Assembly: GCA_934122115.1 (NCBI GenBank)
Contig: CAKOVU010000001.1
Location: 215,755 to 279,754, forward strand
DNA from: an uncultured Clostridia bacterium
GTDB taxonomy: Bacteria; Bacillota; Clostridia; TANB77; CAG-508
DNA: 64,000 nt
Direction of reading: 5' to 3'
Part shown: one piece after another, positions 11,869-57,797 of the stretch
Layout: every line of letters begins with the position of its first letter
How positions within the stretch are numbered: position 1 is the first letter of the stretch
Program-made: the position numbers and the translations under genes
The notes under the pieces: generated by a model
Database searches by the model: none
The model's input: only the letters and a program-made list of their open reading frames with translations
Told to the model about the DNA's origin: nothing

Positions 11869-11943
11869 TGGCAGGGGTAGTAGGATTCGAACCCACACAG
11901 GCGGTTTTGGAGACCGATGTGCTACCATTGACACTATACCCCT
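11869..11943 (-). tRNA. tRNA-Trp (anticodon CCA)
   Basis: Cloverleaf with a CTCCAAA anticodon loop and encoded CCA end; closely matches the Bacillus tRNA-Trp. Confidence 0.9.
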
Positions 11944-12036: not shown

Positions 12037-12048
12037 AAGAGTATATGG

Positions 12049-12404
12049 GGATGTATTTGGTTTTCGACAATATCCCAGAAGCATATAAAGCGAGTAGTGG
12101 ATGGCTGCTTCGGCCACTATAAAAAAGCAGAATAAAAATAAACGCTGATAATACAGAATTAGCTTACGCTGCCTAAGATAGGTGGCCCGTCTTCTCTTTA
12201 GAGGCCTACGGCTTTAGAAAAGGCGTCAAATTAGTAGGAAACAAAACTATTTTTGCTATGGAAATAGTGGGTATTAAATAGCTACTTTAGATTTGCATTT
12301 GTTTGTTAATACAAATTTAGAGGAATAATAATAACAAACTGCACTCGGAGAAATATATGTGGAAAGAATATTGGACAGGGGTTCGACTCCCCTCATCTCC
12401 ACCA
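12049..12404 (+). ncRNA. ssrA: tmRNA (SsrA)
   Basis: 5' GGGGATG...TTCGACA; tag ORF ...ADNTELAYAA*; 3' tRNA-like end GGACAGGGGTTCGACTCCCCTCATCTCCACCA. Confidence 0.9.
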
Positions 12405-38139: not shown

Positions 38140-38172
38140 AAAAGGAGTACTTTCGATATGAAAGTACTCCTT
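38140..38172. terminator. Bidirectional terminator (aaggagtactttc/gaaagtactcctt)
   Basis: 13-bp perfect inverted repeat. Confidence 0.6.
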
Positions 38173-38341
38173 AAAAGATATCAATTAAATTAAAAATTAC
38201 AATAATATTTCAATTCTGTTTCAAAAATGTTAAATAACATATTTAAGCATTAAAAATATTGTCTTTAAATTATAATTGTTGTAAAATAAAATAAGTAATA
38301 TTATGTTGTAGTTTGTAAAAAACTACAAAGAGGAGGAAAAG

Positions 38342-39250
38342 ATGGCTACTACAAACCCAATGCAAAGAAAGGCAAAAAATTCATTCTTATTAGGAGTTTT
38401 ATTAACTATGCTTGTAATGGGAGTGATTGTTGGACTATTATTTTTAAAAATAATGAATATGCAAAAAGCAGAAAATGAAAGGCTTGCAAACCAAAAGCAA
38501 GTATATGTATTATCACAAGATGTAAAATCTGGAGATAAGGTAGATAGTGCAAATTTAACAACTATAACAGTTGATAATGCAGCAGTACCTTCTAATGCTA
38601 TAACACCAGGAAGCTTAACTGAATACACTGTTGCAAAAATAGATTTGAAAAAAGGAACAACAATTACAGCAGGAATGATCACTGAATCTAGTGAGGAAAC
38701 AACTGCTGATTTAAGAATGCAAGAATATAATATGATAAAATTATCAACACAACTTGCAACAAATGATTACATAGATATTAGATTAAGAATGCCTTCAGGA
38801 TTAGACTACATAGTAGTTTCTAAAAAATCTGTAAAAATTCCTGTAATAGGTGGAGAAGAATCATCAAATACAATATGGGTAAAATTATCAGAAGCAGAAA
38901 CATTAGCAATGAGTAATGCAATAGTTGAAGCATACACAATGAATGGAGCAATACTTTATACAACAACATATACAGAGCCAGGAATGCAAGATGCAGCAAC
39001 ACCAACATATGTACCAAGTGCTAATGTACAAAATTTAATGAATCAAAACCCAAATATATTACAAGAAGCAAAAAATGCTTTATTTACAAGATATAATAGC
39101 ACTTCATCAATAAGAACTAATAATATAAACGGAGAACTTTCACAATATCAAGAAGAAGCACAAGGCAACATTAGTAATGGAGTATCATCAGAAGTAACAT
39201 CAGCACAAGAACAAAGAAAATCTTATTTAGATGCTTTAGCTGGAAACTAA
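38342..39250 (+). CDS. CpaB/RcpC-like Flp/Tad pilus assembly protein (N-terminal TM plus SAF domain)
   Basis: Architecture and size; start of the pilus locus. GGAGG RBS. Confidence 0.55.
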   Translation: MATTNPMQRKAKNSFLLGVLLTMLVMGVIVGLLFLKIMNMQKAENERLANQKQVYVLSQDVKSGDKVDSANLTTITVDNAAVPSNAITPGSLTEYTVAKIDLKKGTTITAGMITESSEETTADLRMQEYNMIKLSTQLATNDYIDIRLRMPSGLDYIVVSKKSVKIPVIGGEESSNTIWVKLSEAETLAMSNAIVEAYTMNGAILYTTTYTEPGMQDAATPTYVPSANVQNLMNQNPNILQEAKNALFTRYNSTSSIRTNNINGELSQYQEEAQGNISNGVSSEVTSAQEQRKSYLDALAGN

Positions 39251-39271
39251 TATAAAGGAAGGATAAATAAA

Positions 39272-39958
39272 ATGGAAAAAATAGGATTTATAGGGGCGTA
39301 TGATAAAGAAAATCTTATAATGTGTGTAGCAAAAATTCTTACAGAATTAGGCAAAAAAGTAATGGTTATAGATTCTACAGTTACACAAAAAATGAAGTAT
39401 ATAATACCTACTATAGATCCTACTACTTCTTATATAACACAACATGAAGAAATAGATTTTGCAATAGGAATTAAATCTTTTACTGAAATCAATAATTACT
39501 TGGGGATAACTAATTTTGAATCAAGTGATTATGATTATCTATTAATGAATATAGATGATTCAACAGAAATAGAAGAATTTAAAATGGATGAAGCAAAGAA
39601 AAACTATTTTGTTACATCATTTGATTTATATTCACTAAAAAGAGGATTAGAAATATTGGATGGAATAAAAAATCCAATAGATTTAAAGAAAGTGTATTAT
39701 GCTAATAATGTTAGAAAAGAAGATGATGAGTATTTAAATTACTTATCCTTAGGTAAAAAAATAAACTGGGAAGACGAAAAAATTTATTTCCCAGTAGATT
39801 TAGAAGATGAAGATGTAATGCTAGAAAATCAAAGGATAGCAAAAATAAGATTAAAAGGATTAAGCAATTTATATAAAGAGGCTTTAGCATATATTGCAGA
39901 GGAAATTGCAGGCAGTGAAGAAAAGCAAAACATAAAAAAAGTAATAAAGCAATTATAA
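39272..39958 (+). CDS. Degenerate MinD/ParA-fold protein (TadZ/CpaE-like, P-loop lost)
   Basis: IGFIGAYDKENLIMCVAKIL in place of a GKGGVGKT-type loop; DYDYLLMNIDD switch-like motif. Confidence 0.45.
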   Translation: MEKIGFIGAYDKENLIMCVAKILTELGKKVMVIDSTVTQKMKYIIPTIDPTTSYITQHEEIDFAIGIKSFTEINNYLGITNFESSDYDYLLMNIDDSTEIEEFKMDEAKKNYFVTSFDLYSLKRGLEILDGIKNPIDLKKVYYANNVRKEDDEYLNYLSLGKKINWEDEKIYFPVDLEDEDVMLENQRIAKIRLKGLSNLYKEALAYIAEEIAGSEEKQNIKKVIKQL

Positions 39959-39970
39959 AAGGAGAACGAT

Positions 39971-40825
39971 ATGGCAGTAATATCTTTTTGGGGAAACAGC
40001 GAAAAAGAAACTGGACAAACAATTGCTACCATGGCTATATCTACCATGATGGCTTTTGAACATAATTATAAAATATTAACAATTTCTACTGGCTTTAAAG
40101 ATAGAACCATGGATGAAAGTTTTTGGCCGGCAAATAGAGCAACAGGATTACAAAGAATATTAGGAACACAAAGCGAAAACTTTGTTAATATGGAATCTGG
40201 TATAGAAGGATTAGGCAGAGTAGTAGAAAGCAATAGGTTAAGAAAAGGGCTAATACCGAACTATGCAAAAGTAGTATTTACCAATAGATTGGACGTGCTA
40301 GTATCACCTAGAACCGAAAATCCAAAAGAATATATAGAAATTGCAAAAACATATCCTAGCATTATTGAAACAGCAGCAAATGATTATAATATGGTTTTTG
40401 TAGATATTGATAAGAGGCTTCCAACAGAAATTCAAAGAGCAATATTAACTAAGTCAGATGTTATAATAATAACTGCTAAACAAGGGCAACAAGGAATAAA
40501 CAAATTAAATGAATTAACCAAAAAGAATGAAATGTTTCAAGGAGACAATATATTAAAATTGATAGGCAAATATGATGCAAGCTCTAAGTATAATGTAAAA
40601 AATATATCAAGAGAATTGCGAGAAAGAAAATTAATCTTATCTGTGCCTTATAATACAATATTCTTTGAAACAACAATGGAAGGAAAAGTACCAGATTACT
40701 TTTTAAAATTTAGAGGCTTAACAGTAGTAGATAAAAACGATTCTAATATGTTTTTCTTATCAGAGCTAAAAAGAGATTGTGAAATAATATTAGAAAAAAT
40801 ACGTGAAGTAGAATTAAAGAGATAA
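39971..40825 (+). CDS. Second degenerate MinD/ParA-fold protein (TadZ/CpaE-like)
   Basis: ISFWGNSEKETGQTIATMAIS in place of the P-loop; DYNMVFVDID. Confidence 0.45.
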   Translation: MAVISFWGNSEKETGQTIATMAISTMMAFEHNYKILTISTGFKDRTMDESFWPANRATGLQRILGTQSENFVNMESGIEGLGRVVESNRLRKGLIPNYAKVVFTNRLDVLVSPRTENPKEYIEIAKTYPSIIETAANDYNMVFVDIDKRLPTEIQRAILTKSDVIIITAKQGQQGINKLNELTKKNEMFQGDNILKLIGKYDASSKYNVKNISRELRERKLILSVPYNTIFFETTMEGKVPDYFLKFRGLTVVDKNDSNMFFLSELKRDCEIILEKIREVELKR

Positions 40826-40844
40826 CAAAGGAAAGGAGCTAGAC

Positions 40845-42758
40845 ATGAATATTACAAATATTGTTTTAATGGTTATTGTAGTAGGATTAGCTTTTTCTTT
40901 AATATATAGATTTATTAAGAAAAGAAGAAATGAAGAAAAAGAGGATACTATTAAAGTAGACGATAAAACTTATACTTTAGAAAGAATGACGGAATATATC
41001 AAAAAGAGATTGGATGAAATAACAAAGATAAACTTATATGATATAGGCCTTTCTGAAGAGGAATTAAAAAGAAGAAAAAATAAAAAGTATGAGTTGAAAA
41101 AAGCTTTAAAAGGATGTACATATGGAGATGTTAACGATAAAAAATATATAAAAGAGCTTATATATGACCTTTTATATAATGAATATGGTGTTGATGAGAT
41201 AACTGTATCAAAAGCAATTCCATTTGATATTCCTTCATTATTAACTCCACAAGATAAATTTGATATTATCATATACATGTACAAAATGGAGTTTGGATAT
41301 GAAGCTTTAACAGAAATGATAAAAAAATATGATCTAGCAGAGCTAAAATATGTAGAAGGAGAATCAAAACCTTCATATGTAATAACTTCAGAAGAAATAT
41401 CTGAAATATATGAAAAAGAAAATTTTGTATTATCATTTCCAGATAAATTGAACGTAGTAGTGCAGAGAATTTATCAACAATACAAAGGATACAGCAGCAT
41501 CGATGAAATAAGAGATATGAACATAGATGGTATTTCTGGTGGTGTATCTGGATTGCCAGAGAGCTTTTTAAGCCAGGTTGCTCAAACAGATAGCGATTAT
41601 TTAGGACAAATATCAGAACACAAAGTTCCACGTGCTTGTGATAGCATTTGGATAATGTTCCAAGGTAAATCAATTCGTTTGGCATTCTTATCATTTGGCT
41701 CTGAAGCTGAATTAAAAAGGGTTTGCCAGAATATTTACAAATTCAATAATCCAGGTCAGTTATCAGATACAAATGGTTATAAGATAAACGAAATGAAAGA
41801 TGGTTCTCGTGTTGTTGTTGTAAGACCAAGTATGTCTGAAACATGGGCATTCTTTGTAAGAAAATTCGATGTTAAGAGAGCTACACTAGAGCAAATAGTT
41901 AGATTCCCTGGAAAAGACGAAACAATAGATTTATTAAAATACCTTGTAAAAGGTGCAAGAATTATATCACTTACAGGTGAGCAGGGTTGTGGTAAAACAA
42001 CAATGCTTATGGCTATGATAGAAAACATATATGATACAATGAACCTTCGTATCACAGAAACAGCATTCGAGCTTCACTTAAGAAAAATATATCCAACAAG
42101 AAATATTTTATCAATGCGTGAAACAGAAACAATATCTGGACAACAATGTTTGGACGTTCAGAAGAAAACAGATGGTACTGTTAATATAATCGGAGAGGTT
42201 GCAACAGACCCAGTAGCATCTTGGATGATTCAATCAGCACAGGTTGCATCTAAATTTACATTATTTACTCACCATGCTAAAACTTTCCCAGATTTAGTAA
42301 CAGCACTTCGTAACTCAATGCTTAGAGCTGGAGTGTTCAATGATGAAAGAACAGCTGAAGAGCAAGTTGTTTCAGTATTAAATTTTGATGTTCACTTAGT
42401 AAAAGACTTTAGAGGAAGAAGATACATAGAAAGAATAACAGAATGTATACCAGTACAAGAGAAAAATGAATACACATATGATTATAGAAAACAAAAAACT
42501 TTAGAAGGAAAAATAGAAAAATTTATGGATAATGCAACAATGTATTTTTCTAAGAGTACTAATAGAGAATTGTATCAATACAGAAATATACTAGAATATC
42601 ATGATGGAACATATGTGCTAACAAATCCAATAACAGAAACAAACATTACAGAAATGCTAAACAACATGGATGATACAGATGCAGAAGAATTTAAAAAGTT
42701 TGTATATGAAAAATGGGGAATAAAAGCTCGTAGAGCATCTGATGATGTTATAGAATAG
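40845..42758 (+). CDS. Secretion ATPase of the CpaF/TadA (VirB11-like) family, 637 aa with a long N-terminal extension
   Basis: Walker A GEQGCGKTT; Asp/His boxes. Confidence 0.7.
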   Translation: MNITNIVLMVIVVGLAFSLIYRFIKKRRNEEKEDTIKVDDKTYTLERMTEYIKKRLDEITKINLYDIGLSEEELKRRKNKKYELKKALKGCTYGDVNDKKYIKELIYDLLYNEYGVDEITVSKAIPFDIPSLLTPQDKFDIIIYMYKMEFGYEALTEMIKKYDLAELKYVEGESKPSYVITSEEISEIYEKENFVLSFPDKLNVVVQRIYQQYKGYSSIDEIRDMNIDGISGGVSGLPESFLSQVAQTDSDYLGQISEHKVPRACDSIWIMFQGKSIRLAFLSFGSEAELKRVCQNIYKFNNPGQLSDTNGYKINEMKDGSRVVVVRPSMSETWAFFVRKFDVKRATLEQIVRFPGKDETIDLLKYLVKGARIISLTGEQGCGKTTMLMAMIENIYDTMNLRITETAFELHLRKIYPTRNILSMRETETISGQQCLDVQKKTDGTVNIIGEVATDPVASWMIQSAQVASKFTLFTHHAKTFPDLVTALRNSMLRAGVFNDERTAEEQVVSVLNFDVHLVKDFRGRRYIERITECIPVQEKNEYTYDYRKQKTLEGKIEKFMDNATMYFSKSTNRELYQYRNILEYHDGTYVLTNPITETNITEMLNNMDDTDAEEFKKFVYEKWGIKARRASDDVIE

Positions 42759-42772
42759 AAGGAGGTGCAATT

Positions 42773-44851
42773 ATGCCATCGAGTAAAATAATATTATACA
42801 TGCTTATAGCAGTAGGAGTATTATTAGGATTTATAGTAGTAGCGTATATGGTATTAAGAAAAAAACTACAGCAATCAGATGTAATGCAGATGCAAAAGCT
42901 TCGTGCAGGTACTCAAGAGAAAACTTTTTCACTAGAAATACTATATCAGAAATTATATACAAAATACATAAAAACCCCCTTCTTAAAAAGATATCTATTT
43001 AAAATAAGAAGAAGATTGGAAATTATTAACGTAGATGATGAATATTTAACAAGAAAGCAAACTTCGCAAATATTAACAAAAGCTTTATTAATAATTATTC
43101 CACTTACATTATTCATAATTTTAATAGCGAAAAGTAATGCTTTATTACTATCTATATTATTAATATTTGAACTATTTATAATAGATACTTTAGTAGATGG
43201 TATGGTTGATAAAATGGATAACAGATTGCTTCAACAGCAGATAGATTTCTTTGCAGAAATAAGACATGCTTACCACGAATACAACATGGTTGAAGAAGCA
43301 ATTTATCAAGTAGCTCAGGATGATGAAAACGTTGAGATGGCAAGGCAGGCAGAAAAGATATATGAGATATTAATATCAAATGACCCTGAGAGTGAACTTG
43401 AAAAATATTATGATGTTGCACCAAACAGCTATTTAAAAGAATTTGCTGGAATATCATATTTAACAAAGGAATTTGGCGATAGAAAAGTAGATAAAACTTC
43501 TTTATATTTGAAGAATTTAAATAATATAAGCCAAGAAATGCAATTGGAAATATTAAAAAGAGATAAATTGGATTATGTGTTCCAAAGTTTGTCTGTAATA
43601 TCTATACTTCCATTACTAGCATTAGAGCCAATAAAAAATTGGGCAGTATCACAATTTTCATTTACATCATCATTCTATTTGGGAAAACAAGGAATGATAG
43701 TGCAAATATTAATAGTAATACTTACATTCTTGTGCTATACGTTAACAAGAAAATTGAAAGATAATGGCTCAACAACAATTGATACAAGGCCAACAAACCC
43801 ATGGCAAGAGAAATTATATAAATTGCCAATAATAAAGCAATTGGTAGATTGCTTTATACCAAAAGATGGAACAAAAGAAAGAAGAAGATTAACAAATTTA
43901 ATAAAAGATTCTGCAACAAAAGATAAGATACAATGGATATATGTATCAAGAATATTGTTAACCATTGTAGCATTTGCTGGCTCTTTAATTGTATTTACTC
44001 AGTTACATAGAATTGAAATAGATTATATATACACACAACCAACTTCAACTTATAATATAGTTGGAGAAATGTCTGATAAAAACTTAAAAAGTGCTCAGCA
44101 ATTAACAGAAAGTGATAACAAGTTTTTAAATAAATTTAGAGGAAAAACTGCTACAACTTTAGAAGATATAGAAAAAGCTATGTCTAGGTCTGAAGACTAT
44201 GCCACAAGCACAGATGATGAAATTGAAGTGGCAGCAAAAAGAGTATTAGAAAAATTAAGAAAAATCAATAGTGAGTATCTAAGTTGGTTTGAAATGCTAC
44301 TTGCAATGGTATTTGCTTTAGTGGGTTATAACTTACCAATATGGCTATTATATTTCCAAGCAAGAATGAGAAAGATGGAAATGGAAGACGAAGTAATGCA
44401 ATTCCAAACAATCATTTTAATGCTTATGAGAATTGAAAGAGTTAATGTAGAAATGATTCTTGAATGGCTAGAAAGATATTCAAATATATTCAAAGAACCA
44501 CTTGCTAAATGTATAAACAATTATGAAAGCGGTTCATGGGAAGCTCTTGAGCAATTAAAAGATGATGTAAATTATAAAGACTTTATTAGAATAGTAGAAA
44601 GTCTTCAAGCAGCAGTAGAGAAAATACCAATTGCAGATGCTTTTGATGAATTGGATTCTGAAAGAGAGTACTATCAAGCTAAACGTAAAGAATCAAACGA
44701 AAGATTAATCAGCAAAAAAGGAATGATTGGAAAAGTAATAGGTTTTGCCCCAATGGTTTGCTTATTTGTAGGTTACTTAATAATACCTTTAGTATTAATA
44801 GGATTAACAAGTATGAATTCATCATTTGCTGGAATGTCTTCATCAATGTAG
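42773..44851 (+). CDS. TadB/TadC (GspF-type) polytopic membrane platform protein, fused or duplicated, 692 aa
   Basis: Multiple TM blocks with T2SS-F-like cytoplasmic domains. Confidence 0.55.
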   Translation: MPSSKIILYMLIAVGVLLGFIVVAYMVLRKKLQQSDVMQMQKLRAGTQEKTFSLEILYQKLYTKYIKTPFLKRYLFKIRRRLEIINVDDEYLTRKQTSQILTKALLIIIPLTLFIILIAKSNALLLSILLIFELFIIDTLVDGMVDKMDNRLLQQQIDFFAEIRHAYHEYNMVEEAIYQVAQDDENVEMARQAEKIYEILISNDPESELEKYYDVAPNSYLKEFAGISYLTKEFGDRKVDKTSLYLKNLNNISQEMQLEILKRDKLDYVFQSLSVISILPLLALEPIKNWAVSQFSFTSSFYLGKQGMIVQILIVILTFLCYTLTRKLKDNGSTTIDTRPTNPWQEKLYKLPIIKQLVDCFIPKDGTKERRRLTNLIKDSATKDKIQWIYVSRILLTIVAFAGSLIVFTQLHRIEIDYIYTQPTSTYNIVGEMSDKNLKSAQQLTESDNKFLNKFRGKTATTLEDIEKAMSRSEDYATSTDDEIEVAAKRVLEKLRKINSEYLSWFEMLLAMVFALVGYNLPIWLLYFQARMRKMEMEDEVMQFQTIILMLMRIERVNVEMILEWLERYSNIFKEPLAKCINNYESGSWEALEQLKDDVNYKDFIRIVESLQAAVEKIPIADAFDELDSEREYYQAKRKESNERLISKKGMIGKVIGFAPMVCLFVGYLIIPLVLIGLTSMNSSFAGMSSSM

Positions 44852-44881
44852 TACTGATAAAAATTCTGGAGGAAAATATAT

Positions 44882-45508
44882 ATGGAAAACGCAACAAAAG
44901 CACTGGAAATAGCTGGCGGAGTATTAATTTCATTAATAATAATAGGAACAATAGTATTTTTTTACAACAGAATATCAGAAGTAAAGCAAACAGAACATAA
45001 TACTCAAGCGGAAGAGCAAGCAGCAGATTTTAATAAAGATTATGAAGTATATAACAGAAATGACGTTTATGGAAGTGAATTATTATCTTTAGCAAACCAG
45101 ATGCAAGATTATAACACTAGAGAAGTTGAAAAAGGTTATGAAAAGATAGAATTAAGTGCCACTTTTAAGCAAAAATCTAATATATTTATACAATATTATG
45201 GCAATAAGCAAACATATTCTCAAAGTGATTTAGCATCTGGTTATACAAAGCTTGCAAATGAAATAAATAAACTTTCAACTAAAAAGATAACAGACGCTTC
45301 TGGTCAAACAACAAAAACATATAATGAATGGGTAAAAATATCTAAAACTACCTTGAAATCAACTTTAAAAACTGCAGATTATAATAGTATAATAAATTAC
45401 CAAGACTTAATAACTGAGCAAACTAATATTGCTAGAGGAACTTTTAGATGCACAGATGTAAAATATAAAAATTCAAGAATAGTAAAAATGACTTTTTCTG
45501 AAAATTAG
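44882..45508 (+). CDS. Pilin-like protein, MENATKALEIAGG N-terminus, 208 aa
   Basis: Shared N-terminal motif plus hydrophobic segment, as in 45526, 46539 and 46984. Confidence 0.5.
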   Translation: MENATKALEIAGGVLISLIIIGTIVFFYNRISEVKQTEHNTQAEEQAADFNKDYEVYNRNDVYGSELLSLANQMQDYNTREVEKGYEKIELSATFKQKSNIFIQYYGNKQTYSQSDLASGYTKLANEINKLSTKKITDASGQTTKTYNEWVKISKTTLKSTLKTADYNSIINYQDLITEQTNIARGTFRCTDVKYKNSRIVKMTFSEN

Positions 45509-45525
45509 AATAGGAGGTAGCTAAA

Positions 45526-45987
45526 TTGGAAAATGCGAGCAAAGCTTTAATTATGGCTGCATCAGTACTTATAGCTATTATGGTTTTGTCATTAGGTGTA
45601 TATTTGTTTAGCATATTTGGTGGAACAAGCCAAGAAATAACAAATATTATAACAGAAAGTCAAATTTCAGAATTTAATAGTAACTTTACAAAATATGAAG
45701 GAAAAACTGATATAAGGGCACAAGATATAGTAAGTGTTGCGAATTTTGCAATAAAAAGCAACAAACAAAACGAAGATGACCCAAGAAAATATGTTTATGT
45801 GGTGCTAAGAAAAACACCGGGATTTAACAGTAACAGTTTTGAAACAAAAGAAAGCGAATTTATTGATTTTATAAAGCAATATTCGCTAGAACCAGACAAT
45901 GTAACAGTAATAAATTTTAAGTGTAGTGATGTTCAAATAAATGAAGAAACTGGTATGGTAAATAAGATTATTTTTGAAAAAATTTAA
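45526..45987 (+). CDS. Pilin-like protein, MENASKALIMAAS N-terminus, 153 aa
   Basis: As above; GGAGG RBS. Confidence 0.5.
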   Translation: MENASKALIMAASVLIAIMVLSLGVYLFSIFGGTSQEITNIITESQISEFNSNFTKYEGKTDIRAQDIVSVANFAIKSNKQNEDDPRKYVYVVLRKTPGFNSNSFETKESEFIDFIKQYSLEPDNVTVINFKCSDVQINEETGMVNKIIFEKI

Positions 45988-46050
45988 CAAACAGATTTTT
46001 ATAAAAAAGATTGCATAAAAAAATATAAAATGCTATAATAAAGAGGAATT

Positions 46051-46488
46051 ATGAAAAAAATTGGGATATTAATTTGTACTCTAGTAATAGTTATAGTTGC
46101 AGTAATTGGTGTTAATATATATAGCTATAATGAAAGATTAAAAGCAGCTGAAAAAAATAATAAAAATTATCAAAGTTATTATAATGTAGAAGTACTTGGA
46201 AGTGATGTGGGGTCACTTATAAATAAAATATTAGATACAAATTCAAAAAACAATATTCAAAAAGATGAAAATGGGAAATATATAGATAATGGAAAAGAAA
46301 TTGCAATTTCGGTTACAATAAAGTTTTTAGAATTAGATAAAAACATTTCAATCGAAGCAATTGAAAAGCAAGGAGTAGATAGATTTATTAAAAATTTCGG
46401 TGCAGAAACATTTAAATGCACAGAAATAGAATATTACCCAAATGCGAAAGGTGTTAAATCAATGCACTTTGAGCAAGTAAAAAAATAA
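46051..46488 (+). CDS. Small signal-anchored protein in the pilus locus, 145 aa
   Basis: N-terminal TM; RBS AGAGGAA. Confidence 0.4.
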   Translation: MKKIGILICTLVIVIVAVIGVNIYSYNERLKAAEKNNKNYQSYYNVEVLGSDVGSLINKILDTNSKNNIQKDENGKYIDNGKEIAISVTIKFLELDKNISIEAIEKQGVDRFIKNFGAETFKCTEIEYYPNAKGVKSMHFEQVKK

Positions 46489-46538
46489 GTTATTAATATT
46501 TTTAAAATATAAAATAAAATCTAAGGAGGAACATTTTT

Positions 46539-46949
46539 ATGGAAAACGCAAGTAAAGCACTAATCATAGCAGGAGCTATTTTAGTATCAATTTTAATTAT
46601 AGGTTTAGGTATGTATCTTTATACAACCGCAAGTGGTGTATTTGATAGCAACCAATTAAAAGAGCAACAAGCTAGAACTTATAATGATCAATTTGAAAAA
46701 TATTTTGGTTCAAAAGTTACAGGTTCAAATGTAAGAGCACTTTATGATGCAGTAAGAAACCACAATATAACAAACCAAAGCGATACATCTTTAACTATAA
46801 CAATTAAACATGGTACAAGTTCAGCTAGTACTGCTGCACAATTAAACACTGATAAAGCTGCAATTCAAGCTGGTAAAGTTTACACAGTTGAAGGAACGAC
46901 TTATGATTCAACATCAGGATACATAACAGAAATAACAGTTACAGACTAG
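46539..46949 (+). CDS. Pilin-like protein, MENASKALIIAGA N-terminus, 136 aa; candidate major subunit
   Basis: Shortest member, AAGGAGG RBS, Ser/Thr-rich. Confidence 0.5.
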   Translation: MENASKALIIAGAILVSILIIGLGMYLYTTASGVFDSNQLKEQQARTYNDQFEKYFGSKVTGSNVRALYDAVRNHNITNQSDTSLTITIKHGTSSASTAAQLNTDKAAIQAGKVYTVEGTTYDSTSGYITEITVTD

Positions 46950-46983
46950 TTAAGTTAATAATAAAGTGAAATAGGAAAGAATT

Positions 46984-47622
46984 ATGGAAAATGCAGTTGA
47001 AGCTTTAAAAATGGCATTTGCAATGCTTGTGCTAGTATTAGCACTTTCAGTATCAATCATGTCCTTTTCAGCGGCTAGGCAAACAGCAGATTTTGTATTA
47101 CAATCTGCTGACCCAACTGCAACCTATGAATATAATGCAGAAGGGCAAGAAAATAGAATAGTAGGGTTGGAAACAGTTATTCCAACTTTATATAAATATT
47201 CAATAGAAAATTACTCAATAGTTTTTAAGCAGGCTAGCGCAAATCAAGTAGATACGGCAAATGGAAAATTGTTAGTGCCGTATAACGAAATTAGTCCGCT
47301 AACCATATATACAACAAAAACAGTTAGAAGCACTTGGCCAGAAGACTATGTAAATACTACATTAAATCAAGACAAAAACATTAGTGTATTTGATTTAAAA
47401 GAAGAGCAAGAAAGAGGAGAAAGCTGGACAATAAGTAGTGATGCTATCAAAGAAAATCTAAAGAATATTATAGAGGGCAAAGGTCAAAATAACGAATATG
47501 CAAACAATCCATTAACTAAAAGAAATAATAAATACTTAGAGCTAATAGGAAGAAGCCAGGTAAGAAAATCTGGAAATAATACAGTTTCTAAAATAACAAT
47601 AACATATGTATTAATTAATTAA
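46984..47622 (+). CDS. Pilin-like protein, MENAVEALKMAFA N-terminus, 212 aa
   Basis: As above. Confidence 0.5.
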   Translation: MENAVEALKMAFAMLVLVLALSVSIMSFSAARQTADFVLQSADPTATYEYNAEGQENRIVGLETVIPTLYKYSIENYSIVFKQASANQVDTANGKLLVPYNEISPLTIYTTKTVRSTWPEDYVNTTLNQDKNISVFDLKEEQERGESWTISSDAIKENLKNIIEGKGQNNEYANNPLTKRNNKYLELIGRSQVRKSGNNTVSKITITYVLIN

Positions 47623-47664
47623 CAGAAGAAGGACAAGATTAAAAGTTTAGAAAGGAAATAGATT

Positions 47665-48189
47665 ATGGGAGATAGTTTAATGACAATAATTGCGATTTTT
47701 TTAGCAGCTATATTGATGTTTGTGTTCCCACTAATGTCAATGTCTGATAGAACTGATGATATTTCACAATTATTAGTAGAAACAGCTACAACAGAATTTG
47801 TAGATAATGTAAGAAGTACAGGAAAATTAACATTGGATGATTACGATAAATATGTACAAGAAATATCATCTACAGGAAATACATATGATGTAGAAATGAC
47901 AGCACAAATATTGGATGAGAATCCAGGAATAAAAACAACACAAGCTGAAATAACAAAAATAGGAGAGAATGTATATTACAATTTATATACAACTCAAATA
48001 GAAGATAGATTAAAATCTAATTCTACATTAAAGCTAAAGGAAGGAGATATTTTCTCAGTTTCTGTAAAAAATACTAATACAACAATATCTCAATCTTTGA
48101 AAAACTTTTTCTACAAAATAGCTGGAAATGATACATATCAAGTTGCTGCACAACATGCGGGAATGGTAACTGTTAATGGAACAAAATAA
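47665..48189 (+). CDS. Pilin or minor-pilin-like protein with an N-terminal hydrophobic segment, 174 aa
   Basis: MGDSLMTIIAIFLAAILMFVFPLM. Confidence 0.4.
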   Translation: MGDSLMTIIAIFLAAILMFVFPLMSMSDRTDDISQLLVETATTEFVDNVRSTGKLTLDDYDKYVQEISSTGNTYDVEMTAQILDENPGIKTTQAEITKIGENVYYNLYTTQIEDRLKSNSTLKLKEGDIFSVSVKNTNTTISQSLKNFFYKIAGNDTYQVAAQHAGMVTVNGTK

Positions 48190-48276
48190 AGATTATAAAA
48201 GCAAAGCCCGACTTAATTAAATAAAATAAGTCGGGTTTGTTTTAAACTAAATTATATTTAGAAAGGTAATTAACAA

Positions 48277-49890
48277 ATGAAACTACAACATTTAGCAGTG
48301 ATTTTTGTAATTATAATATTGCCAATATCGTTGGTATTAGCTGCTTATTTAGGTAATCAAATTACCACAATACAATTGCAAACACAGTATAGTACTAAGC
48401 TAATTAATGCAACATATGACTCACTAAAGGCATTTAAAATAAATACAGCAAATAACAACTATTCTACTTTGGGCGCCTCAAAGGCAAGAGATATAGAAGC
48501 CTCGGTTAGTACTTTTTATAGAACTTTAGCAACTGCAATGGGAACAATCGGGTATAGTTCATATGAATTGCAAACATATACACCTGCTTTAGTATACACA
48601 TTGCACGATGGCTTTTATATTTATACAAAATATTATGATACAAATAAAAATGAATATACATATGGCTTAAAGCCTATGATAGCTTACTCTTGTAGATATA
48701 AGGTTGGAAACGGTGATAGATATGATTTTGTGGTAAACTATACTTTAGATAATTCAATATCTATAATAGGAACTGTAGATGGTGAATTCGTTACAAAATC
48801 AGGATATTTGATAACTAGAGCTTATAATGTGCATCAATATGAAGCTTTATATGAAAATTTGATTACATTTAATGACGCAGGAAACCCAGAAAATACAGAT
48901 TCAGATGGAAAGCCTGTACCTGTTAGGTATCAATATATTGTATACAATAATCAAAAAGTGTACAAAGATGGAGATAGATATTTCTATTATAGTAGTGGCT
49001 ATAGGAAAGATTATTTAAAATCAAGTGATGATATAAGAGAGGTTGAAAGTCGTTTTAATAATGGAGGAAGCAATAGTGCATCAATGTATTATACTGAGGC
49101 TGCAACATTCTCATACTGGGTTATGAACAAATTGAGCAGTATAAAAATATCTGATGCTGTAGATGCCAATGGAAATTCAATAAGTTTTGCATCAAATTTA
49201 AGTGGAAACGTATTTGATGTTAGTACAGATAATGATCCATTAGTAAGCACATCATTATTTAATGAACATAGAATGAATGTAATTAGAAGAACTATAGAAA
49301 CCAATTTAGCTTCTTCAATAGCAAATTATAACAGTTACTCTAAATCGGGTTACCAATTTACAATGCCAATATTAAATGAAAACGAATGGGATAAAATAGA
49401 GAATAATGTTTGTATGATAGCTTTCTTACAAGGATTACCTATAGGAGGCAAGCTTTATAATAACTATTGTGTAGTTGCAAATAATGCTAATAAAGAAACT
49501 ATAGGAAGAAATTCAATTTATATAATAGATAGTGAAGGTGAATACCACAAATCAGGATGTGCAACTTTAATTGCTAAATTAAGGAGCGGAACTGCAACAA
49601 TAGTTGGAGCATATGCAAATAGCGATTTTGAAAGAAAAGCAGTTTCGCTTACAGGCGAAGATGCAAATGCTGGATCACAATTAACAGGAAGTAATGCAAA
49701 TGATACAGCATACTATTTCCCACAGGCATATACGTCGTGCTATGATTGTATAGTAAATTCTCAGGAGGATTATGATATAGACGATATAATAAATGGAAAG
49801 GTAAATATACCAGTGCTAAAAGATGCATATTTAAAGGCTTTAGCAAGATGCAGATATGATGCATATACACAGAATCAATATTTTAAGTAA
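48277..49890 (+). CDS. Large secreted or anchored protein of the pilus locus, 537 aa (tip-adhesin or TadG-like candidate)
   Basis: N-terminal hydrophobic segment. Tyr/Asn-rich, typical of a beta-rich extracellular domain. Confidence 0.4.
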   Translation: MKLQHLAVIFVIIILPISLVLAAYLGNQITTIQLQTQYSTKLINATYDSLKAFKINTANNNYSTLGASKARDIEASVSTFYRTLATAMGTIGYSSYELQTYTPALVYTLHDGFYIYTKYYDTNKNEYTYGLKPMIAYSCRYKVGNGDRYDFVVNYTLDNSISIIGTVDGEFVTKSGYLITRAYNVHQYEALYENLITFNDAGNPENTDSDGKPVPVRYQYIVYNNQKVYKDGDRYFYYSSGYRKDYLKSSDDIREVESRFNNGGSNSASMYYTEAATFSYWVMNKLSSIKISDAVDANGNSISFASNLSGNVFDVSTDNDPLVSTSLFNEHRMNVIRRTIETNLASSIANYNSYSKSGYQFTMPILNENEWDKIENNVCMIAFLQGLPIGGKLYNNYCVVANNANKETIGRNSIYIIDSEGEYHKSGCATLIAKLRSGTATIVGAYANSDFERKAVSLTGEDANAGSQLTGSNANDTAYYFPQAYTSCYDCIVNSQEDYDIDDIINGKVNIPVLKDAYLKALARCRYDAYTQNQYFK

Positions 49891-49893: not shown

Positions 49894-49928
49894 AAAAATC
49901 AGGAATTCATTTTAGAACTCCTGATTTT
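49894..49928. terminator. Bidirectional terminator (aatcaggaattcattttagaactcctgatt)
   Basis: Inverted repeat between convergent genes. Confidence 0.6.
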
Positions 49929-55683: not shown

Positions 55684-57054
55684 ATGTTTAAAAAACAGAA
55701 AATAAAATCAAAATCAGGAATAACATTAGTGGCTCTTGTTGTAACAATAGTTGTGCTATTGTTATTAGCGGGAGTAAGTCTAAGTTTAGTTATAGGTAAC
55801 GACGGAATAATGAAAAGAGCAAAAGAGGCTAAAGAAAAATATGGACAAGCAAGCAAGAATGAGCAGAAAGATTTAGATACAGTAGAAGATTATATGAATA
55901 AAATGACAGGTGAAGGTTCTGGAACTGGAACAGGAACTGTTGTGAAGGTAAATGTAGGAGAATCTGCAACGGGTGTTGCAACAATAAATGGAAAAGCAGG
56001 AAATACAAATAATCCAACAATACCAAAAGGCTATACACCAATAAATGCAGGAAATGCCACGTGGGGAGATGGAAACAGTAGCCCCGCCCCAAGTTCAATA
56101 GATAATGGCTTAGTAATAAAAGATGATAATAATAATGAATGGGTGTGGGTGCCAGTAGAAGAAATTAGCAAATATTATGAAAGCGTAGATTCAGGAGTCA
56201 CAATAACAGGAAGTACAGTAACAACAAAAAAATATACAAAATCATCAATAGAAATGGGAAGAGAAGAAGATAAGACAACAATAACAAGAGGATTACCAAG
56301 TAGTAGTAATAGTTGTCGTGAGCCTGCATTACTAGGTACAAATTATGATAGTGATGCTAATGCGAAAAAGGCAGGATTTACAGATGCAAAAGATATGGCA
56401 ACAAAAATGGTAAGAGAATATGAAACAATGATAAAAAGCATAGAAAAATATGGAGGATTCTATATAGGAAGATATGAGCTATCTGGAACAGTAGATAATC
56501 CAACAGAAAAAACAGGAGCAACAATAACAAAAAAAACCTGGTATGAATTGTATAATGCATGTAAAAAAATAGGAGCAAAATCTGATGGAAGTGATAAAGA
56601 AGGAATAGCAACAAGAATGATATGGGAATGCCAGTGGGATGCCACATGTGATTTTATATCAAAAAAGGGAGACCAAAAGAAAATAACAGATTCACGTAGT
56701 TGGGGAAATTATTCTGATTCAACGTTTCCAGCCAATACAGGAAATTATGAAAAAAGTAAAAAGAAAGATACAGGATCAAATGAATATTGGAAGGCAAATA
56801 ATATTTATGATATAGCAGGAAATTGCTATGAATGGACACAAGGGGCGAGCGTCACCAGCAGACGTGCTGAACGTGGAGGTTACTACTACGACAGTGGCTC
56901 TTACCTTCCAGCATATATCAACAGCCACAACGATCCTACCAACAGCTACGTCTTCTTACGGTTCTCGTCCCACTTTAATAATTACTACTGGAATCTAGAG
57001 CGTGGGAACCAGTGGAAAGAAGAATGGAATAGGTTGACAGAAAATAGAATCTAA
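55684..57054 (+). CDS. Pilin-like N-terminus fused to an FGE/SUMF1-type domain; C-terminal tail frame-shifted relative to paralogue 3882
   Basis: N-terminus and first 70 aa nearly identical to 25876. The homologous ...GSRPTLIITTGI* ending is in another frame. Confidence 0.65.
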   Translation: MFKKQKIKSKSGITLVALVVTIVVLLLLAGVSLSLVIGNDGIMKRAKEAKEKYGQASKNEQKDLDTVEDYMNKMTGEGSGTGTGTVVKVNVGESATGVATINGKAGNTNNPTIPKGYTPINAGNATWGDGNSSPAPSSIDNGLVIKDDNNNEWVWVPVEEISKYYESVDSGVTITGSTVTTKKYTKSSIEMGREEDKTTITRGLPSSSNSCREPALLGTNYDSDANAKKAGFTDAKDMATKMVREYETMIKSIEKYGGFYIGRYELSGTVDNPTEKTGATITKKTWYELYNACKKIGAKSDGSDKEGIATRMIWECQWDATCDFISKKGDQKKITDSRSWGNYSDSTFPANTGNYEKSKKKDTGSNEYWKANNIYDIAGNCYEWTQGASVTSRRAERGGYYYDSGSYLPAYINSHNDPTNSYVFLRFSSHFNNYYWNLERGNQWKEEWNRLTENRI

Positions 57055-57544: not shown

Positions 57545-57620
57545 GGTCGCTTAGCTCAGCTGGGAGAGCATCTGCCTTACAAGCAGGGGGTCATAGGTTC
57601 GAGCCCTATAGCGACCACCA
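57545..57620 (+). tRNA. tRNA-Val (anticodon TAC)
   Basis: Cloverleaf; CCTTACAAG anticodon loop; CCA encoded. Confidence 0.9.
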
Positions 57621-57628
57621 TTTTTTAC

Positions 57629-57705
57629 GGCCTGGTAGTTCAGTTGGTTAGAACGCTAGCCTGTCACGCTAGAGGTCGACGGTTCGAGCCCGTTCCAGGT
57701 CGCCA
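57629..57705 (+). tRNA. tRNA-Asp (anticodon GTC)
   Basis: CCTGTCACG anticodon loop; close match to the Bacillus tRNA-Asp. Confidence 0.9.
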
Positions 57706-57721
57706 TTTTTTTATATAAAAA

Positions 57722-57797
<76 letters not shown>

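What the first reader, a model, noticed from the sequence alone, without database searches (positions are those of the whole stretch)
38342..49890. Tad/Flp-like pilus locus with two consecutive pseudo-ATPases and six proteins sharing a non-canonical MENA(S/T)KAL N-terminus
The assembly/platform part of the locus encodes a CpaB-like protein, two MinD/ParA-fold proteins that have both lost the P-loop, a CpaF/TadA-type ATPase with an N-terminal extension of about 250 aa, and a TadB/C fusion of 692 aa.

Four downstream proteins start MENA(T/S)KAL(E/I)(I/M)A(G/A), followed by a hydrophobic helix. They are at 44882, 45526, 46539 and 46984. Two further N-terminally anchored proteins follow at 47665 and 48277, and a small signal-anchored protein (46051) sits between the pilin-like genes.

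The N-termini lack the G|xxxxE(Y/F) Flp/prepilin site. They look like a TadE-like (AVEFAL-type) segment without the preceding Gly, so their processing may differ.

The five pilin-anchored LRR/FGE proteins elsewhere in the window are candidate cargo or tip subunits for a fibre built by this locus or by a type IV system. The prepilin peptidase at 7727 is unlinked.
Basis: partly seen in the sequence, partly recalled or inferred. Interest (0 to 1): 0.55.

Follow-up and report, generated by a model that had tools for sequence, protein, structure and literature searches.

The report
Known TANB77 Tad-like pilus gene cluster
This is the 12-gene Tad-like pilus cluster of the uncultured gut Clostridia order TANB77, published in 2024 for its link to cancer immunotherapy response; what seems not to have been reported is that its pilin-like proteins have no cleavable prepilin leader.

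Summary
All 12 ORFs exist as described and form one operon-like block (38342-49890, + strand). The block is orthologous by gene order and protein size to the "pilus gene cluster" 927-938 of TANB77 published in Nat Commun 2024 (PMC11680825), so the locus and its Tad-like reading are already known.

My tests agree with that reading:
- The ATPase is CpaF/TadA-like.
- The first protein is SAF/CpaB-like.
- The 284-aa protein has a ParA fold.
- Each half of the 692-aa protein aligns collinearly to a whole TadB/TadC unit (95% and 32% probability).

The title overstates the motif. Three proteins start MENA(S/T)KAL and a fourth starts MENAVEAL. The other two have different N-termini.

Three points are absent from the paper's main text:
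- MENA is invariant across about 80 species, and in-frame stops lie 1-7 codons upstream, so no prepilin leader or Gly(-1) site is possible.
- Both ParA-like proteins have degenerate Walker A motifs.
- The system is not confined to TANB77. Relatives with the same architecture sit on large plasmids of cultured Bacillales and Clostridium.

No filament has been shown, and no solved pilin fold matched the model. Most likely this is a Tad-type filament machine whose subunits are made leaderless.

The parts
38259..38292 (+). Candidate sigma-70-type promoter(s) upstream of the first gene. A hairpin at about 38143-38172 closes the upstream DUF2651 gene.
   Evidence: Consensus scan only (9 of 12 matches); sequence read. 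Weak evidence.
38342..39250 (+). g1: CpaB/RcpC-like protein (302 aa) with an N-terminal membrane anchor and a SAF domain.
   Evidence: PF08666 SAF at 23.9 bits. TIGR03177 CpaB at E 2.4e-9, below its cut-off. The orthologue profile hits the FlgA SAF domain 3frn at E 0.036. The paper reports structural homology to CpaB.
39272..39958 (+). g2: small ParA/MinD-like protein (228 aa) with a degenerate Walker A (GAYDKEN; orthologues FIGxYDKTD). Probably a TadZ-like scaffold that does not hydrolyse ATP.
   Evidence: The profile hits only MinD 4v03 at E 0.48, across the P-loop region. hhalign against g3 gives 32% probability. The paper reports a TadZ-like structure.
39971..40825 (+). g3: ParA/CpaE-like protein (284 aa). 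Its Walker A carries an insertion, and the lysine is Q in this genome (ETGQT).
   Evidence: The profile hits ParA-family 3ea0 at E 1.3e-3, and also CooC, Get3 and CapB. Position 16 is K in about 55% and Q in about 40% of orthologues.
40845..42758 (+). g4: TadA/CpaF-clade secretion ATPase (637 aa) with an N-terminal hydrophobic helix, an extra helical N-domain and an intact Walker A (GEQGCGKTT).
   Evidence: Best solved relative is CpaF 8rkd at E 4.8e-10 over residues 270-538. T2SSE scores 23 bits, below its gathering score. TIGR03819 scores E 7.5e-9. G383, K384, E451 and H477 are invariant.
42773..44851 (+). g5: polytopic platform protein (692 aa), a tandem of two TadB/TadC-like units.
   Evidence: hhalign against six canonical TadB/TadC proteins: residues 2-332 align to 1-316 of 317 (Prob 95.3%, E 2.3e-8); residues 385-688 align to 2-302 (Prob 31.9%, E 4.9e-4). 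About 7-8 hydrophobic segments. No Pfam or PDB sequence hit. The AF2 model is unusable. The paper reports TadC/TadB halves.
44882..45508 (+). g6: pilin-like protein (208 aa), N-terminus MENATKAL.
   Evidence: Its globular part is homologous to g7, g8 and g9 (Prob 84-98%).
45526..45987 (+). g7: pilin-like protein (153 aa, TTG start), N-terminus MENASKAL.
   Evidence: Homologous to g6, g8 and g9 beyond residue 30 (Prob 96-99%).
46051..46488 (+). g8: paralogue of the pilin-like globular domain (145 aa), but with an ordinary MKK + hydrophobic signal or anchor instead of MENA.
   Evidence: hhalign to g7 gives Prob 98.8% and to g6 98.1%. The paper predicts a signal peptide for the equivalent protein 934.
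46539..46949 (+). g9: candidate major subunit (136 aa). The N-terminus MENASKALIIAGAIL...G is near-invariant, while the rest of the protein is only 45-55% identical across homologues.
   Evidence: 6948 homologues; N-termini listed; alignment. The AF2 model has pLDDT 86.6, with helices 2-34 and 37-53 followed by an alpha/beta domain. Some species carry two copies.
46984..47622 (+). g10: MENA-class protein (212 aa; MENAVEAL) with an unrelated globular part. Candidate minor subunit.
   Evidence: No profile similarity to g6-g9 beyond residue 30.
47665..48189 (+). g11: N-terminally anchored protein (174 aa; MGDSLMTIIAIFLAAILMFVFPLM). It is the best conserved of the small proteins (45-81% identity), and plasmid relatives also have it.
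48277..49890 (+). g12: large N-terminally anchored protein (537 aa). By position and size it corresponds to 'pilin 938' of the published cluster. A core of about 325 aa is shared with plasmid relatives, and the length varies (448-868 aa).
   Evidence: The paper reports that about 25% at the N-terminus resembles TadE/PilV, and that recombinant 938 activates dendritic cells through TLR4.
49895..49928 (.). Hairpin between the convergent g12 and mutS2 genes. Terminator-like; the scan called it on the minus strand.
   Evidence: 14-pair stem.

Best explanation
The locus encodes a Tad-type (type IVc-like) member of the type IV filament superfamily, adapted to a single-membrane Clostridia lineage (order TANB77).

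Proposed mechanism:
- A membrane-tethered hexameric TadA/CpaF-like ATPase (g4) drives a fused TadB-TadC platform (g5).
- The platform extracts pilin-like subunits from the membrane by their N-terminal helix and polymerises them.
- The SAF/CpaB-like protein (g1) provides the extracytoplasmic collar.
- Two ParA-like proteins with degenerate nucleotide-binding loops (g2, g3) act as TadZ/CpaE-type scaffolds rather than enzymes.
- g9 is the likely major subunit.
- g6, g7 and g10 (MENA class), g11 and g12 are minor, priming or tip subunits. g8 is a Sec-type paralogue.

Unlike every characterised Tad, Com or type IV pilus, the subunits are translated without a class III leader. The protein begins M-E-N-A-(S/T)-K-A-L directly at the start of the hydrophobic helix, so no prepilin-peptidase step is needed. 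Glu2 and Lys6 lie one helical turn apart. They probably neutralise charge in the filament core, the role played elsewhere by Glu5 and the processed N-terminus.

Shown: gene content and order, family assignments, absence of a leader, and conservation. Inferred: that a filament is made, the role of each subunit, the lack of processing, and the Glu2/Lys6 role.
For: Published identity: PMC11680825 describes a 12-gene cluster with the same order and sizes, present in 122 of 129 TANB77 species, and gives it the same assignments from AlphaFold and Foldseek.

Machinery:
- The ATPase is nearest to CpaF, with Walker A, Glu and His residues invariant.
- The platform halves align collinearly to whole TadB/TadC units.
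- g1 gives SAF/CpaB hits.
- g3 has a ParA fold.

Operon structure: every gene has a ribosome-binding site and the gaps are short.

Conservation: all 12 genes are syntenic in about 80 species, with the ATPase at 75-91% identity.

Subunits:
- The g9 model has a 53-residue N-terminal helix followed by an alpha/beta domain, at pLDDT 86.6.
- The N-terminal 25 residues are near-invariant while the remainder is 45-55% identical. This is the conservation pattern of type IV pilins.
- g6, g7, g8 and g9 are paralogues.

Leaderless state:
- In-frame stops lie 1-7 codons upstream of each start.
- MEN is at least 90% conserved at positions 1-3 in four paralogue groups across about 80 species.
- There is no Gly before the helix.
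- A canonical clostridial Tad locus (L096) has KKGG|LS leaders, which gives a direct contrast.
- No peptidase gene lies in the locus.
Against: - No filament has been observed for this system. The paper tested only a recombinant protein on immune cells.
- Foldseek found no solved pilin similar to the g9 model. The best hits are NTF2-like, at E about 0.04 and TM 0.25.
- No Pfam or NCBIfam pilin family matches any of the small proteins. Across 142 orthologues there are only stray DUF4320 and archaeal-flagellin hits at E about 0.01.
- Profile comparison with TadE, TadF and TadG was negative. The reference alignments were tiny, and the positive-control pairs also failed.
- The second platform half scores only 32% probability, and my AF2 model of g5 was unusable.
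- An A24 peptidase does exist in the same genome, so processing cannot be excluded.
- Glu2 is not universal in distant relatives, for example MSTNASKAL in Thermobacillus.
Confidence: 0.6

Rival explanations
1. It is a Tad-related membrane machine that does not build a long pilus. The N-terminally anchored proteins would form a short pseudopilus or wall-spanning complex. That complex would export, display or anchor large surface proteins, or stabilise cell-cell contact, for example during plasmid transfer.
For: - The nearest non-TANB77 relatives sit on large plasmids: Thermobacillus pTHECO01, Lysinibacillus pBsph and Clostridium argentinense pRSJ17_1.
- There they lie directly beside SLH or cell-wall-binding proteins and DUF5704 surface proteins of 1000-1160 aa with Sec signals.
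- They also lie near replication-relaxation, C40 peptidase and large ATP-binding genes.
- No pilin fold match was found.
- Plasmid versions carry only one pilin-like gene plus homologues of g11 and g12.
Against: - In TANB77 the cluster is chromosomal and conserved across the order. Its flanks vary and are not plasmid-like, and it has four to five pilin-like paralogues, which is typical of fibre systems.
- No SLH or DUF5704 gene is adjacent in the window.
- The extreme conservation of the first 25 residues fits helix-helix packing in a polymer.
Confidence: 0.2
2. It is a conventional Tad-like pilus, and the subunits are still cleaved. Either the unlinked A24 peptidase (7727-8464) acts with relaxed specificity, or another membrane protease removes a very short leader, so that the MENA motif is a recognition site.
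For: - An A24 peptidase is encoded 30 kb upstream.
- Distant relatives have slightly longer N-termini, such as MNRLS-EAAKFLIIAG and MPTLS-EGAKNV, which could be short leaders.
- One distant locus (L087) ends with a gene carrying an HELGH motif and a faint M50 peptidase hit.
- Strict conservation of MENA would also fit a cleavage motif.
Against: - A24 enzymes cleave after Gly, or after Ala/Ser in archaea, and the site follows a basic leader. Here at most one to four residues precede the helix, and they are acidic or neutral.
- In the same window the five KG|ITLVAL proteins supply obvious canonical substrates for the A24 enzyme.
- No peptidase is linked to the cluster in about 80 species.
Confidence: 0.15
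3. The cluster is a decaying remnant of a Tad locus. It would have lost its pilin leaders, its peptidase and its ATPase-partner P-loops, and no longer functions.
For: Walker A motifs are degenerate in g2 and g3. There is no linked peptidase. Almost all proteins have diverged beyond Pfam thresholds.
Against: - All 12 ORFs are intact and syntenic in about 80 species, and the ATPase is 75-91% identical.
- The paper found the cluster in 122 of 129 species.
- The ATPase catalytic residues are invariant.
- There are thousands of homologues in metagenomes.
Confidence: 0.03

Closest known systems
TANB77 'pilus gene cluster', genes 927-938 of HRGM_Genome_2725 (CAG-245 sp000435175); Nat Commun 2024;15:10726, PMC11680825
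   Same: It has the same 12 genes in the same order with matching sizes: 358/231/280/640/693/165/170/143/146/237/178/621 aa, against 302/228/284/637/692/208/153/145/136/212/174/537 aa here. The assignments match (CpaB, TadZ, CpaE, TadA, TadC+TadB, pilin-like). The lineage also matches: the relatives of the window are Clostridium sp. CAG:780, Ca. Merdicola, Ca. Scatovivens, CAG:389 and CAG:575.
   Different: The window comes from a different species. The paper's main text has no occurrence of 'peptidase', 'leader', 'N-terminal', 'Walker' or 'motif'. It calls the cluster exclusive to TANB77, using a cut-off of at least 50% similarity within gut species. I find relatives with the same architecture elsewhere.
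Tad/Flp (type IVc) pili of Aggregatibacter, Caulobacter and rhizobia (for example loci L094 and L095)
   Same: The gene order is the same: CpaB/RcpC, then TadZ/CpaE, then TadA/CpaF, then TadB, then TadC, then accessory pseudopilins. The ATPase is nearest to CpaF, and the platform halves align to TadB/TadC.
   Different: - The ATPase core is only 25-28% identical.
- TadB and TadC are fused.
- The ATPase has a membrane helix and an extra N-domain.
- There is no secretin, TadD or TadV in the locus.
- The subunits are 136-212 aa, not Flp-sized (about 60 aa), and lack the G|xxxxE(Y/F) site.
Canonical clostridial Tad locus, for example Clostridium botulinum plasmid pBT-22100019 (L096)
   Same: It is also a single-membrane Firmicute system with a SAF protein, a TadA-like ATPase, two platform-like genes and small pilin genes.
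   Different: Its pilins carry classical leaders (…KKGG|LSQLLSVV). Its ATPase is 468 aa and 25% identical. Its platform genes are separate.
Uncharacterised plasmid-borne relatives: Thermobacillus composti pTHECO01, Lysinibacillus sphaericus pBsph, Clostridium argentinense pRSJ17_1, and plasmids of Paenibacillus, Cohnella, Sporosarcina and Alkalihalophilus
   Same: The ATPase matches over its full length at 39-56% identity. The order is the same: SAF, g2-like, g3-like, ATPase, a platform of about 680 aa, a pilin-like protein with a very short N-terminus (MSTNASKAL, MESPVVKAI, MDSPVVKKI), then g11-like and g12-like proteins.
   Different: They have only one pilin-like gene of the MENA type. They are followed by SLH or cell-wall-binding proteins and DUF5704 giant surface proteins, and their context is plasmid-borne. 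All these genes are annotated as hypothetical, and I found no publication on them.

Membership tests
Type IV filament (TFF) superfamily | A PilB/GspE/TadA-family hexameric secretion ATPase | tested here: met
   CpaF is the best solved relative (E 4.8e-10). TIGR03819 TadA-family scores E 7.5e-9. The Walker A lysine and the Glu and His residues are invariant. The Pfam T2SSE score is just below its gathering threshold (23.1 against 24.9 bits).
Type IV filament (TFF) superfamily | A polytopic GspF/PilC/TadB-C platform protein | tested here: met
   hhalign of a 40-sequence g5 profile against six canonical TadB/TadC proteins: the N half gives Prob 95.3% and E 2.3e-8 over the whole unit; the C half gives Prob 31.9% and E 4.9e-4. 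There is no Pfam T2SSF hit in 34 orthologues, no PDB sequence hit, and the AF2 model is unusable. The paper reports structural homology of both halves.
Type IV filament (TFF) superfamily | Subunits made as prepilins with a class III signal peptide: a basic leader, Gly/Ala/Ser at -1, then a hydrophobic helix | tested here: not met
   The proteins start MENA… directly at the helix. In-frame stops lie 1-7 codons upstream. The start is conserved in about 80 species. There is no N_methyl, Flp, TadE or Pilin_N hit.
Type IV filament (TFF) superfamily | A dedicated A24 prepilin peptidase | tested here: inconclusive
   There is none in the locus here or in related loci. One A24 gene lies 30 kb away at 7727-8464, but its obvious substrates are the five KG|ITLVAL proteins.
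Type IV filament (TFF) superfamily | A pilin fold: an N-terminal helix of about 50 residues packed on a beta-sheet | tested here: inconclusive
   The AF2 model of g9 (pLDDT 86.6) has helices 2-34 and 37-53 followed by an alpha/beta domain. Foldseek against the PDB gives no pilin and nothing below E 0.04.
Tad/Flp (type IVc) pilus | A Flp-family major pilin (about 50-80 aa) with the G|xxxxE(Y/F) motif | tested here: not met
   The candidate subunits are 136-212 aa and lack the motif. No PF04964 hit.
Tad/Flp (type IVc) pilus | A TadZ/CpaE ParA-like protein next to the ATPase | tested here: met
   The g3 profile hits ParA-family 3ea0 (E 1.3e-3) and other SIMIBI ATPases. g2 is only suggestive (E 0.48). 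Walker A is degenerate in both. Direct hhalign against two TadZ/CpaE sequences was negative.
Tad/Flp (type IVc) pilus | A CpaB/RcpC SAF-domain protein at the head of the assembly genes | tested here: met
   PF08666 scores above its cut-off (23.9 against 21 bits). TIGR03177 scores E 2.4e-9 but below its cut-off. The FlgA SAF domain 3frn scores E 0.036.
Tad/Flp (type IVc) pilus | TadE/TadF/TadG pseudopilins (PF07811) | tested here: not met
   No PF07811 hit in 142 orthologues. hhalign of g6, g7, g8, g10, g11 and g12 against TadE/F, and of g11 and g12 against TadG, gave under 1% probability, with small reference alignments. The paper reports only partial structural similarity for the N-terminal 25% of protein 938.
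Published TANB77 pilus cluster (927-938) | Twelve syntenic genes with matching sizes and annotations in a TANB77-order genome | tested here: met
   Gene order and sizes come, compared with Table 1 of the paper. Named relatives include CAG:780, Ca. Merdicola, Ca. Scatovivens, CAG:389 and CAG:575.

The most novel reading that the evidence does not exclude
This cluster and its plasmid-borne relatives in Bacillales and Clostridium may form a distinct branch of the type IV filament superfamily that needs no prepilin peptidase. The subunits would be synthesised in 'mature' form, with Met1-Glu2…Lys6 at the very start of the polymerisation helix. A membrane-tethered TadA-like ATPase with a fused TadB-C platform would assemble them directly. 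That would break the rule that every type IV filament requires leader cleavage.
Probability: 0.35. Interest if true: 0.75.

Novelty: already known. Interest (0 to 1): 0.42.

Why it matters
The orthologous cluster has already been linked to better responses to checkpoint-blockade cancer therapy. Its last gene product (938, here g12) activates dendritic cells through TLR4 (PMC11680825). Knowing how the appendage is built therefore has practical value.

First, the subunits have no prepilin leader. Expression and assembly studies should therefore not assume that a peptidase step is needed. If a fibre is made, the system would be a rare exception in type IV filament biology.

Second, relatives with the same architecture exist on plasmids of cultured bacteria. 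These include Lysinibacillus sphaericus C3-41, Paenibacillus polymyxa M1, Thermobacillus composti and Clostridium argentinense. They offer a genetic and microscopic route into a machine that is otherwise known only from uncultured TANB77 genomes.

Tried and rejected
- Pfam and NCBIfam scans of all 12 proteins gave weak hits only for g1 and g4. Scans of 34 g5 orthologues and 142 small-protein orthologues found no T2SSF, Flp, TadE, N_methyl or Pilin_N hit.
- Profile searches of g5, g9 and g12 against PDB sequences found nothing meaningful.
- Foldseek of the g9 model against the PDB found no pilin. The best matches were NTF2-like, at E about 0.04.
That alignment had 25 sequences, 65-69% identical to the query and about 79-100% identical to each other. 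I did not use the model or submit it to fold search.
- A search for an internal repeat in g5, N half against C half, found none. The tandem nature showed up only against external TadB/TadC profiles.
- hhalign of g1, g2, g3, g11, g12 and the MENA proteins against two- to four-sequence references for CpaB, TadZ and TadE/F/G was all negative. This says little, because the pairs that should have matched also failed.
- My first guess that 1624-10768 is a type IVa pilus cluster was wrong. It holds an LRR protein, an N_methyl protein, an AAA/DUF4143 protein, HAD, the A24 peptidase, an Xaa-Pro peptidase and EF-P.
- An Rfam scan for a riboswitch upstream of the locus found none. It detected only tmRNA and tRNAs in the window.
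- Literature searches for leaderless or peptidase-independent pilins, for DUF5704, and for Tad-like systems on Gram-positive conjugative plasmids found nothing relevant.
- P0241 was not on record in the contig collection.
- The 38-sequence ATPase alignment was too diverse for the locus scan and had to be reduced.

Full report
**What is in the sequence.** Each is preceded by a Shine-Dalgarno-like site at normal spacing, and the gaps between genes are 12-87 nt. A hairpin follows the upstream DUF2651 gene and promoter-like hexamers lie at about 38259-38292. A 14-pair hairpin sits between the last gene and mutS2. The window is about 29% G+C. The ATPase sequence occurs identically in many gut metagenome assemblies and in a Clostridia MAG, GCA_047013465.1. 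Named relatives are Clostridium sp. CAG:780, CAG:389, CAG:575, Ca. Merdicola and Ca. Scatovivens. On my own knowledge, not tested here, such names are the pre-GTDB labels of genomes that GTDB places in order TANB77.

**The locus is already published.** A full-text search for TANB77 and pili returned Nat Commun 2024;15:10726 (PMC11680825). That paper describes a stretch of 10-14 genes carried by 122 of 129 TANB77 species. It tabulates twelve genes (927-938) of 358, 231, 280, 640, 693, 165, 170, 143, 146, 237, 178 and 621 aa. [quoted passage not shown] It then lists six pilin-like proteins with one TMH or a signal peptide, and a last protein whose N-terminal quarter resembles TadE/PilV. The window's proteins are 302, 228, 284, 637, 692, 208, 153, 145, 136, 212, 174 and 537 aa, in the same order. 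The window therefore carries an orthologue of that cluster. The paper also showed that recombinant 938, which corresponds to g12 here, activates dendritic cells through TLR4 and improves anti-PD-1 responses in mice. It did not show a filament. Its main text has no occurrence of 'peptidase', 'leader', 'N-terminal', 'Walker' or 'motif'.

**Independent tests of the machinery.**
- g1 scores above the Pfam SAF cut-off. It matches the CpaB equivalog at E 2.4e-9, which is below that model's cut-off. An orthologue profile touches the FlgA SAF domain.
- g4 is nearest to solved CpaF (E 4.8e-10, residues 270-538). It keeps Walker A and the catalytic Glu and His residues across relatives only 30-48% identical to it. 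It has a hydrophobic N-terminal helix and an additional N-domain.
- g3's orthologue profile hits a ParA-family ATPase (3ea0, E 1.3e-3), and also CooC, Get3 and CapB.
- g2's profile reaches only MinD at E 0.48, precisely over the P-loop region. g2 and g3 align to each other with about 32% probability.
- g5 gave nothing with Pfam in any of 34 orthologues, nothing against PDB sequences, and no internal repeat. My AlphaFold run, limited to a shallow alignment, failed with pLDDT 44.7.
- I therefore took canonical TadB and TadC genes from Tad loci on Rhizobium, Serratia and Clostridium botulinum plasmids. I compared them by hhalign with a 40-sequence g5 profile. Residues 2-332 align to a whole TadB/C unit (1-316 of 317) at 95.3% probability and E 2.3e-8. 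Residues 385-688 align to 2-302 at 31.9% and E 4.9e-4. The 'TadB/C fusion' is thus supported, firmly for the first half and weakly for the second. This agrees with the published structural comparison.

**The two 'pseudo-ATPases'.** In g2 orthologues the Walker A region reads FIGxYDK(T)D. The lysine is invariant, but the glycine before it is Asp and the signature lysine of deviant Walker A motifs is missing. The window copy reads GAYDKEN. In g3 the loop carries an insertion, and the lysine position alternates between K (about 55% of species) and Q (about 40%). The window copy has GQT. A catalytic lysine that toggles with glutamine among close species argues against conserved hydrolysis. By inference, these proteins act as scaffolds.

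**The small proteins.** The only four ORFs in the window that start MENA are 44882, 45526, 46539 and 46984, all within 2.1 kb of each other.
- Across about 80 species, g6, g7 and g9 read M-E-N-A-(S/T)-K-A-L with at least 90% conservation at most positions. g10 reads M-E-N-A-x-(D/E)-A-L.
- g11 (M-x-D-T-L-I-T-I-I-A-I…F-V-F-P-L-M) and g12 (M-K-I/L-Q-x-L-A-V-I-F…L-P) form different classes. g8 has an ordinary MKK + hydrophobic start. The title's 'six proteins sharing MENA(S/T)KAL' should therefore read three, or four counting g10.
- Past residue 30, g6, g7, g8 and g9 are homologous (84-99% probability). g10 and g11 are not.
- The g9 family has 6948 detectable members. In the 120 listed and the 50 aligned, the first 25 residues are almost invariant while the rest is 45-55% identical. 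This is the conservation pattern of type IV pilins, whose N-terminal helix packs in the filament core.
- AlphaFold with a 50-sequence alignment gives a confident model (pLDDT 86.6). It has helices at residues 2-34 and 37-53, followed by an alpha/beta domain. That is the overall 'lollipop' layout of pilins.
- However, Foldseek finds no solved pilin. Nothing scores better than E 0.04, and the best matches are NTF2-like. The fold test is therefore inconclusive rather than positive.
- No pilin family in Pfam or NCBIfam matches any of 142 orthologues. There are only stray DUF4320 and archaeal-flagellin hits at about E 0.01.

**No leader.** In-frame stop codons lie 1-7 codons upstream of every start, and those codons overlap the ribosome-binding sites. 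No longer N-terminus is possible. No Gly precedes the helix. The residues before it are acidic or neutral, not basic. By contrast, a canonical clostridial Tad locus on a C. botulinum plasmid has pilins with …KKGG|LSQLLSVV leaders. In the same window, five other proteins (1624, 3882, 12854, 25876, 55684) carry KG|(I/V)TL(V/L)(A/E)L sites. Those sites would suit the unlinked A24 peptidase at 7727-8464. On established knowledge of A24 enzymes, which cleave after Gly following a basic leader, the MENA proteins are very unlikely substrates. The most economical reading is that they are made in their final form. Glu2 and Lys6 sit one helical turn apart. I infer that they play the charge-neutralising role that Glu5 and the processed N-terminus play elsewhere. 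This is inference only.

**The system is wider than TANB77.**
- The ATPase family, matching over its full length including the extra N-domain, has 376 clusters (at 50% identity) with E below 1e-30.
- All twelve genes are syntenic in about 80 fetched species, while the flanking genes change.
- Contigs carrying ATPases only 33-41% identical have the same layout: SAF, two ParA-like proteins, the ATPase, a platform of about 680 aa, then small proteins with very short N-termini such as MNRLSEAAKFLIIAG and MPTLSEGAKNV.
- tblastn against plasmids found full-length homologues at 39-56% identity on large plasmids of cultured Firmicutes. These include Thermobacillus composti, Cohnella, several Paenibacillus, Cytobacillus, Alkalihalophilus pseudofirmus OF4, Sporosarcina, Lysinibacillus sphaericus pBsph and Clostridium argentinense/botulinum.
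- Canonical CpaF proteins are only 25-28% identical, so this is a discrete clade.
- In three plasmids inspected, the order is the same. The cluster is followed by an SLH or cell-wall-binding protein and a DUF5704 protein of 1000-1160 aa with a Sec signal.
- The paper's 'exclusively conserved' statement therefore holds only at its cut-off of at least 50% similarity within gut species. I found no publication on the plasmid systems.

**Mechanism and rivals.**
- My preferred explanation (0.6) is a Tad-type filament machine of a single-membrane bacterium that polymerises leaderless subunits. g9 would be the major subunit, and the others would be minor or tip components.
- The main rival (0.2) is a short pseudopilus or wall-spanning apparatus for surface display or cell contact. 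The plasmid context and the lack of a pilin fold match suggest it.
- A second rival (0.15) keeps a conventional pilus but supposes that an atypical protease cleaves the subunits.
- Decay (0.03) is excluded for practical purposes by the conservation.

**Verdict.** Three points are absent from the paper's main text. The subunits lack a leader and share a strictly conserved N-terminus. The Walker A motifs of both ParA-like proteins are degenerate. Relatives exist on plasmids of cultured hosts. I score the finding as already known and of moderate interest. There is a real but unproven possibility that it represents a peptidase-independent branch of the type IV filament superfamily.

Noticed in passing
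window 1624-3318, 3882-5714, 12854-14143, 25876-27075, 55684-57054: Five proteins carry class-III-type N-termini (…KG|ITLVALVVTIVVLLILAG, or KG|VTLLELTI in 3882). Four of them have Ala instead of Glu at +5. 1624 has BspA-type LRR_5 repeats, and 3882 hits the N_methyl motif. They look like substrates of the A24 peptidase and of a conventional type IV or Com-like system that is not in this window.
   Followed up: partly
window 7198-10234: The A24 prepilin peptidase gene (7727-8464) overlaps the end of a HAD-phosphatase gene. An Xaa-Pro (M24) peptidase gene and efp follow it. No pilus assembly genes lie next to it.
   Followed up: partly
L091 (Thermobacillus composti pTHECO01), L092 (Lysinibacillus sphaericus pBsph), L093 (Clostridium argentinense pRSJ17_1): Relatives of the cluster with the same architecture lie on large plasmids of cultured Firmicutes. 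Each is followed by an SLH or cell-wall-binding protein and a DUF5704-type giant surface protein. In some, replication-relaxation, C40 peptidase and large ATP-binding genes lie nearby. This may indicate a link to plasmid transfer or aggregation.
   Followed up: partly
L085 1610-7399 and 8587-9189: In a distant relative, several proteins encoded just upstream of the cluster end in a shared C-terminal motif (…MGLF, …LGMF). The g2-like protein ends …KKRGLFG. This may be a docking peptide. It is unexplained.
   Followed up: no
L087 9813-10967: A distant relative of the cluster ends with a polytopic protein carrying an HELGH motif and a faint Peptidase_M50 hit, directly after the pilin-like genes. 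It could be a processing protease in that lineage. That locus also has a third ParA-like paralogue at 504-1517.
   Followed up: no
L028 15992-16918; L043 16435-17455; L047 16397-17449: The g9 gene is tandemly duplicated in some TANB77 species. g11 is duplicated and extended in L059 (16812-18101). g12 length ranges from 448 to 868 aa. These are signs of diversification of the exposed parts.
   Followed up: no
L092 4186-5637; L093 9956-11410: Plasmid relatives have an extra gene of about 480 aa immediately upstream of the SAF gene (MKLILASYNV…, MKLAIATGKE…). The TANB77 cluster lacks it. It was not characterised.
   Followed up: no
window 12047-12404; 11872-11943; 57545-57794: The window also contains a tmRNA gene and four tRNA genes, three of them clustered at 57.5-57.8 kb.
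   Followed up: no
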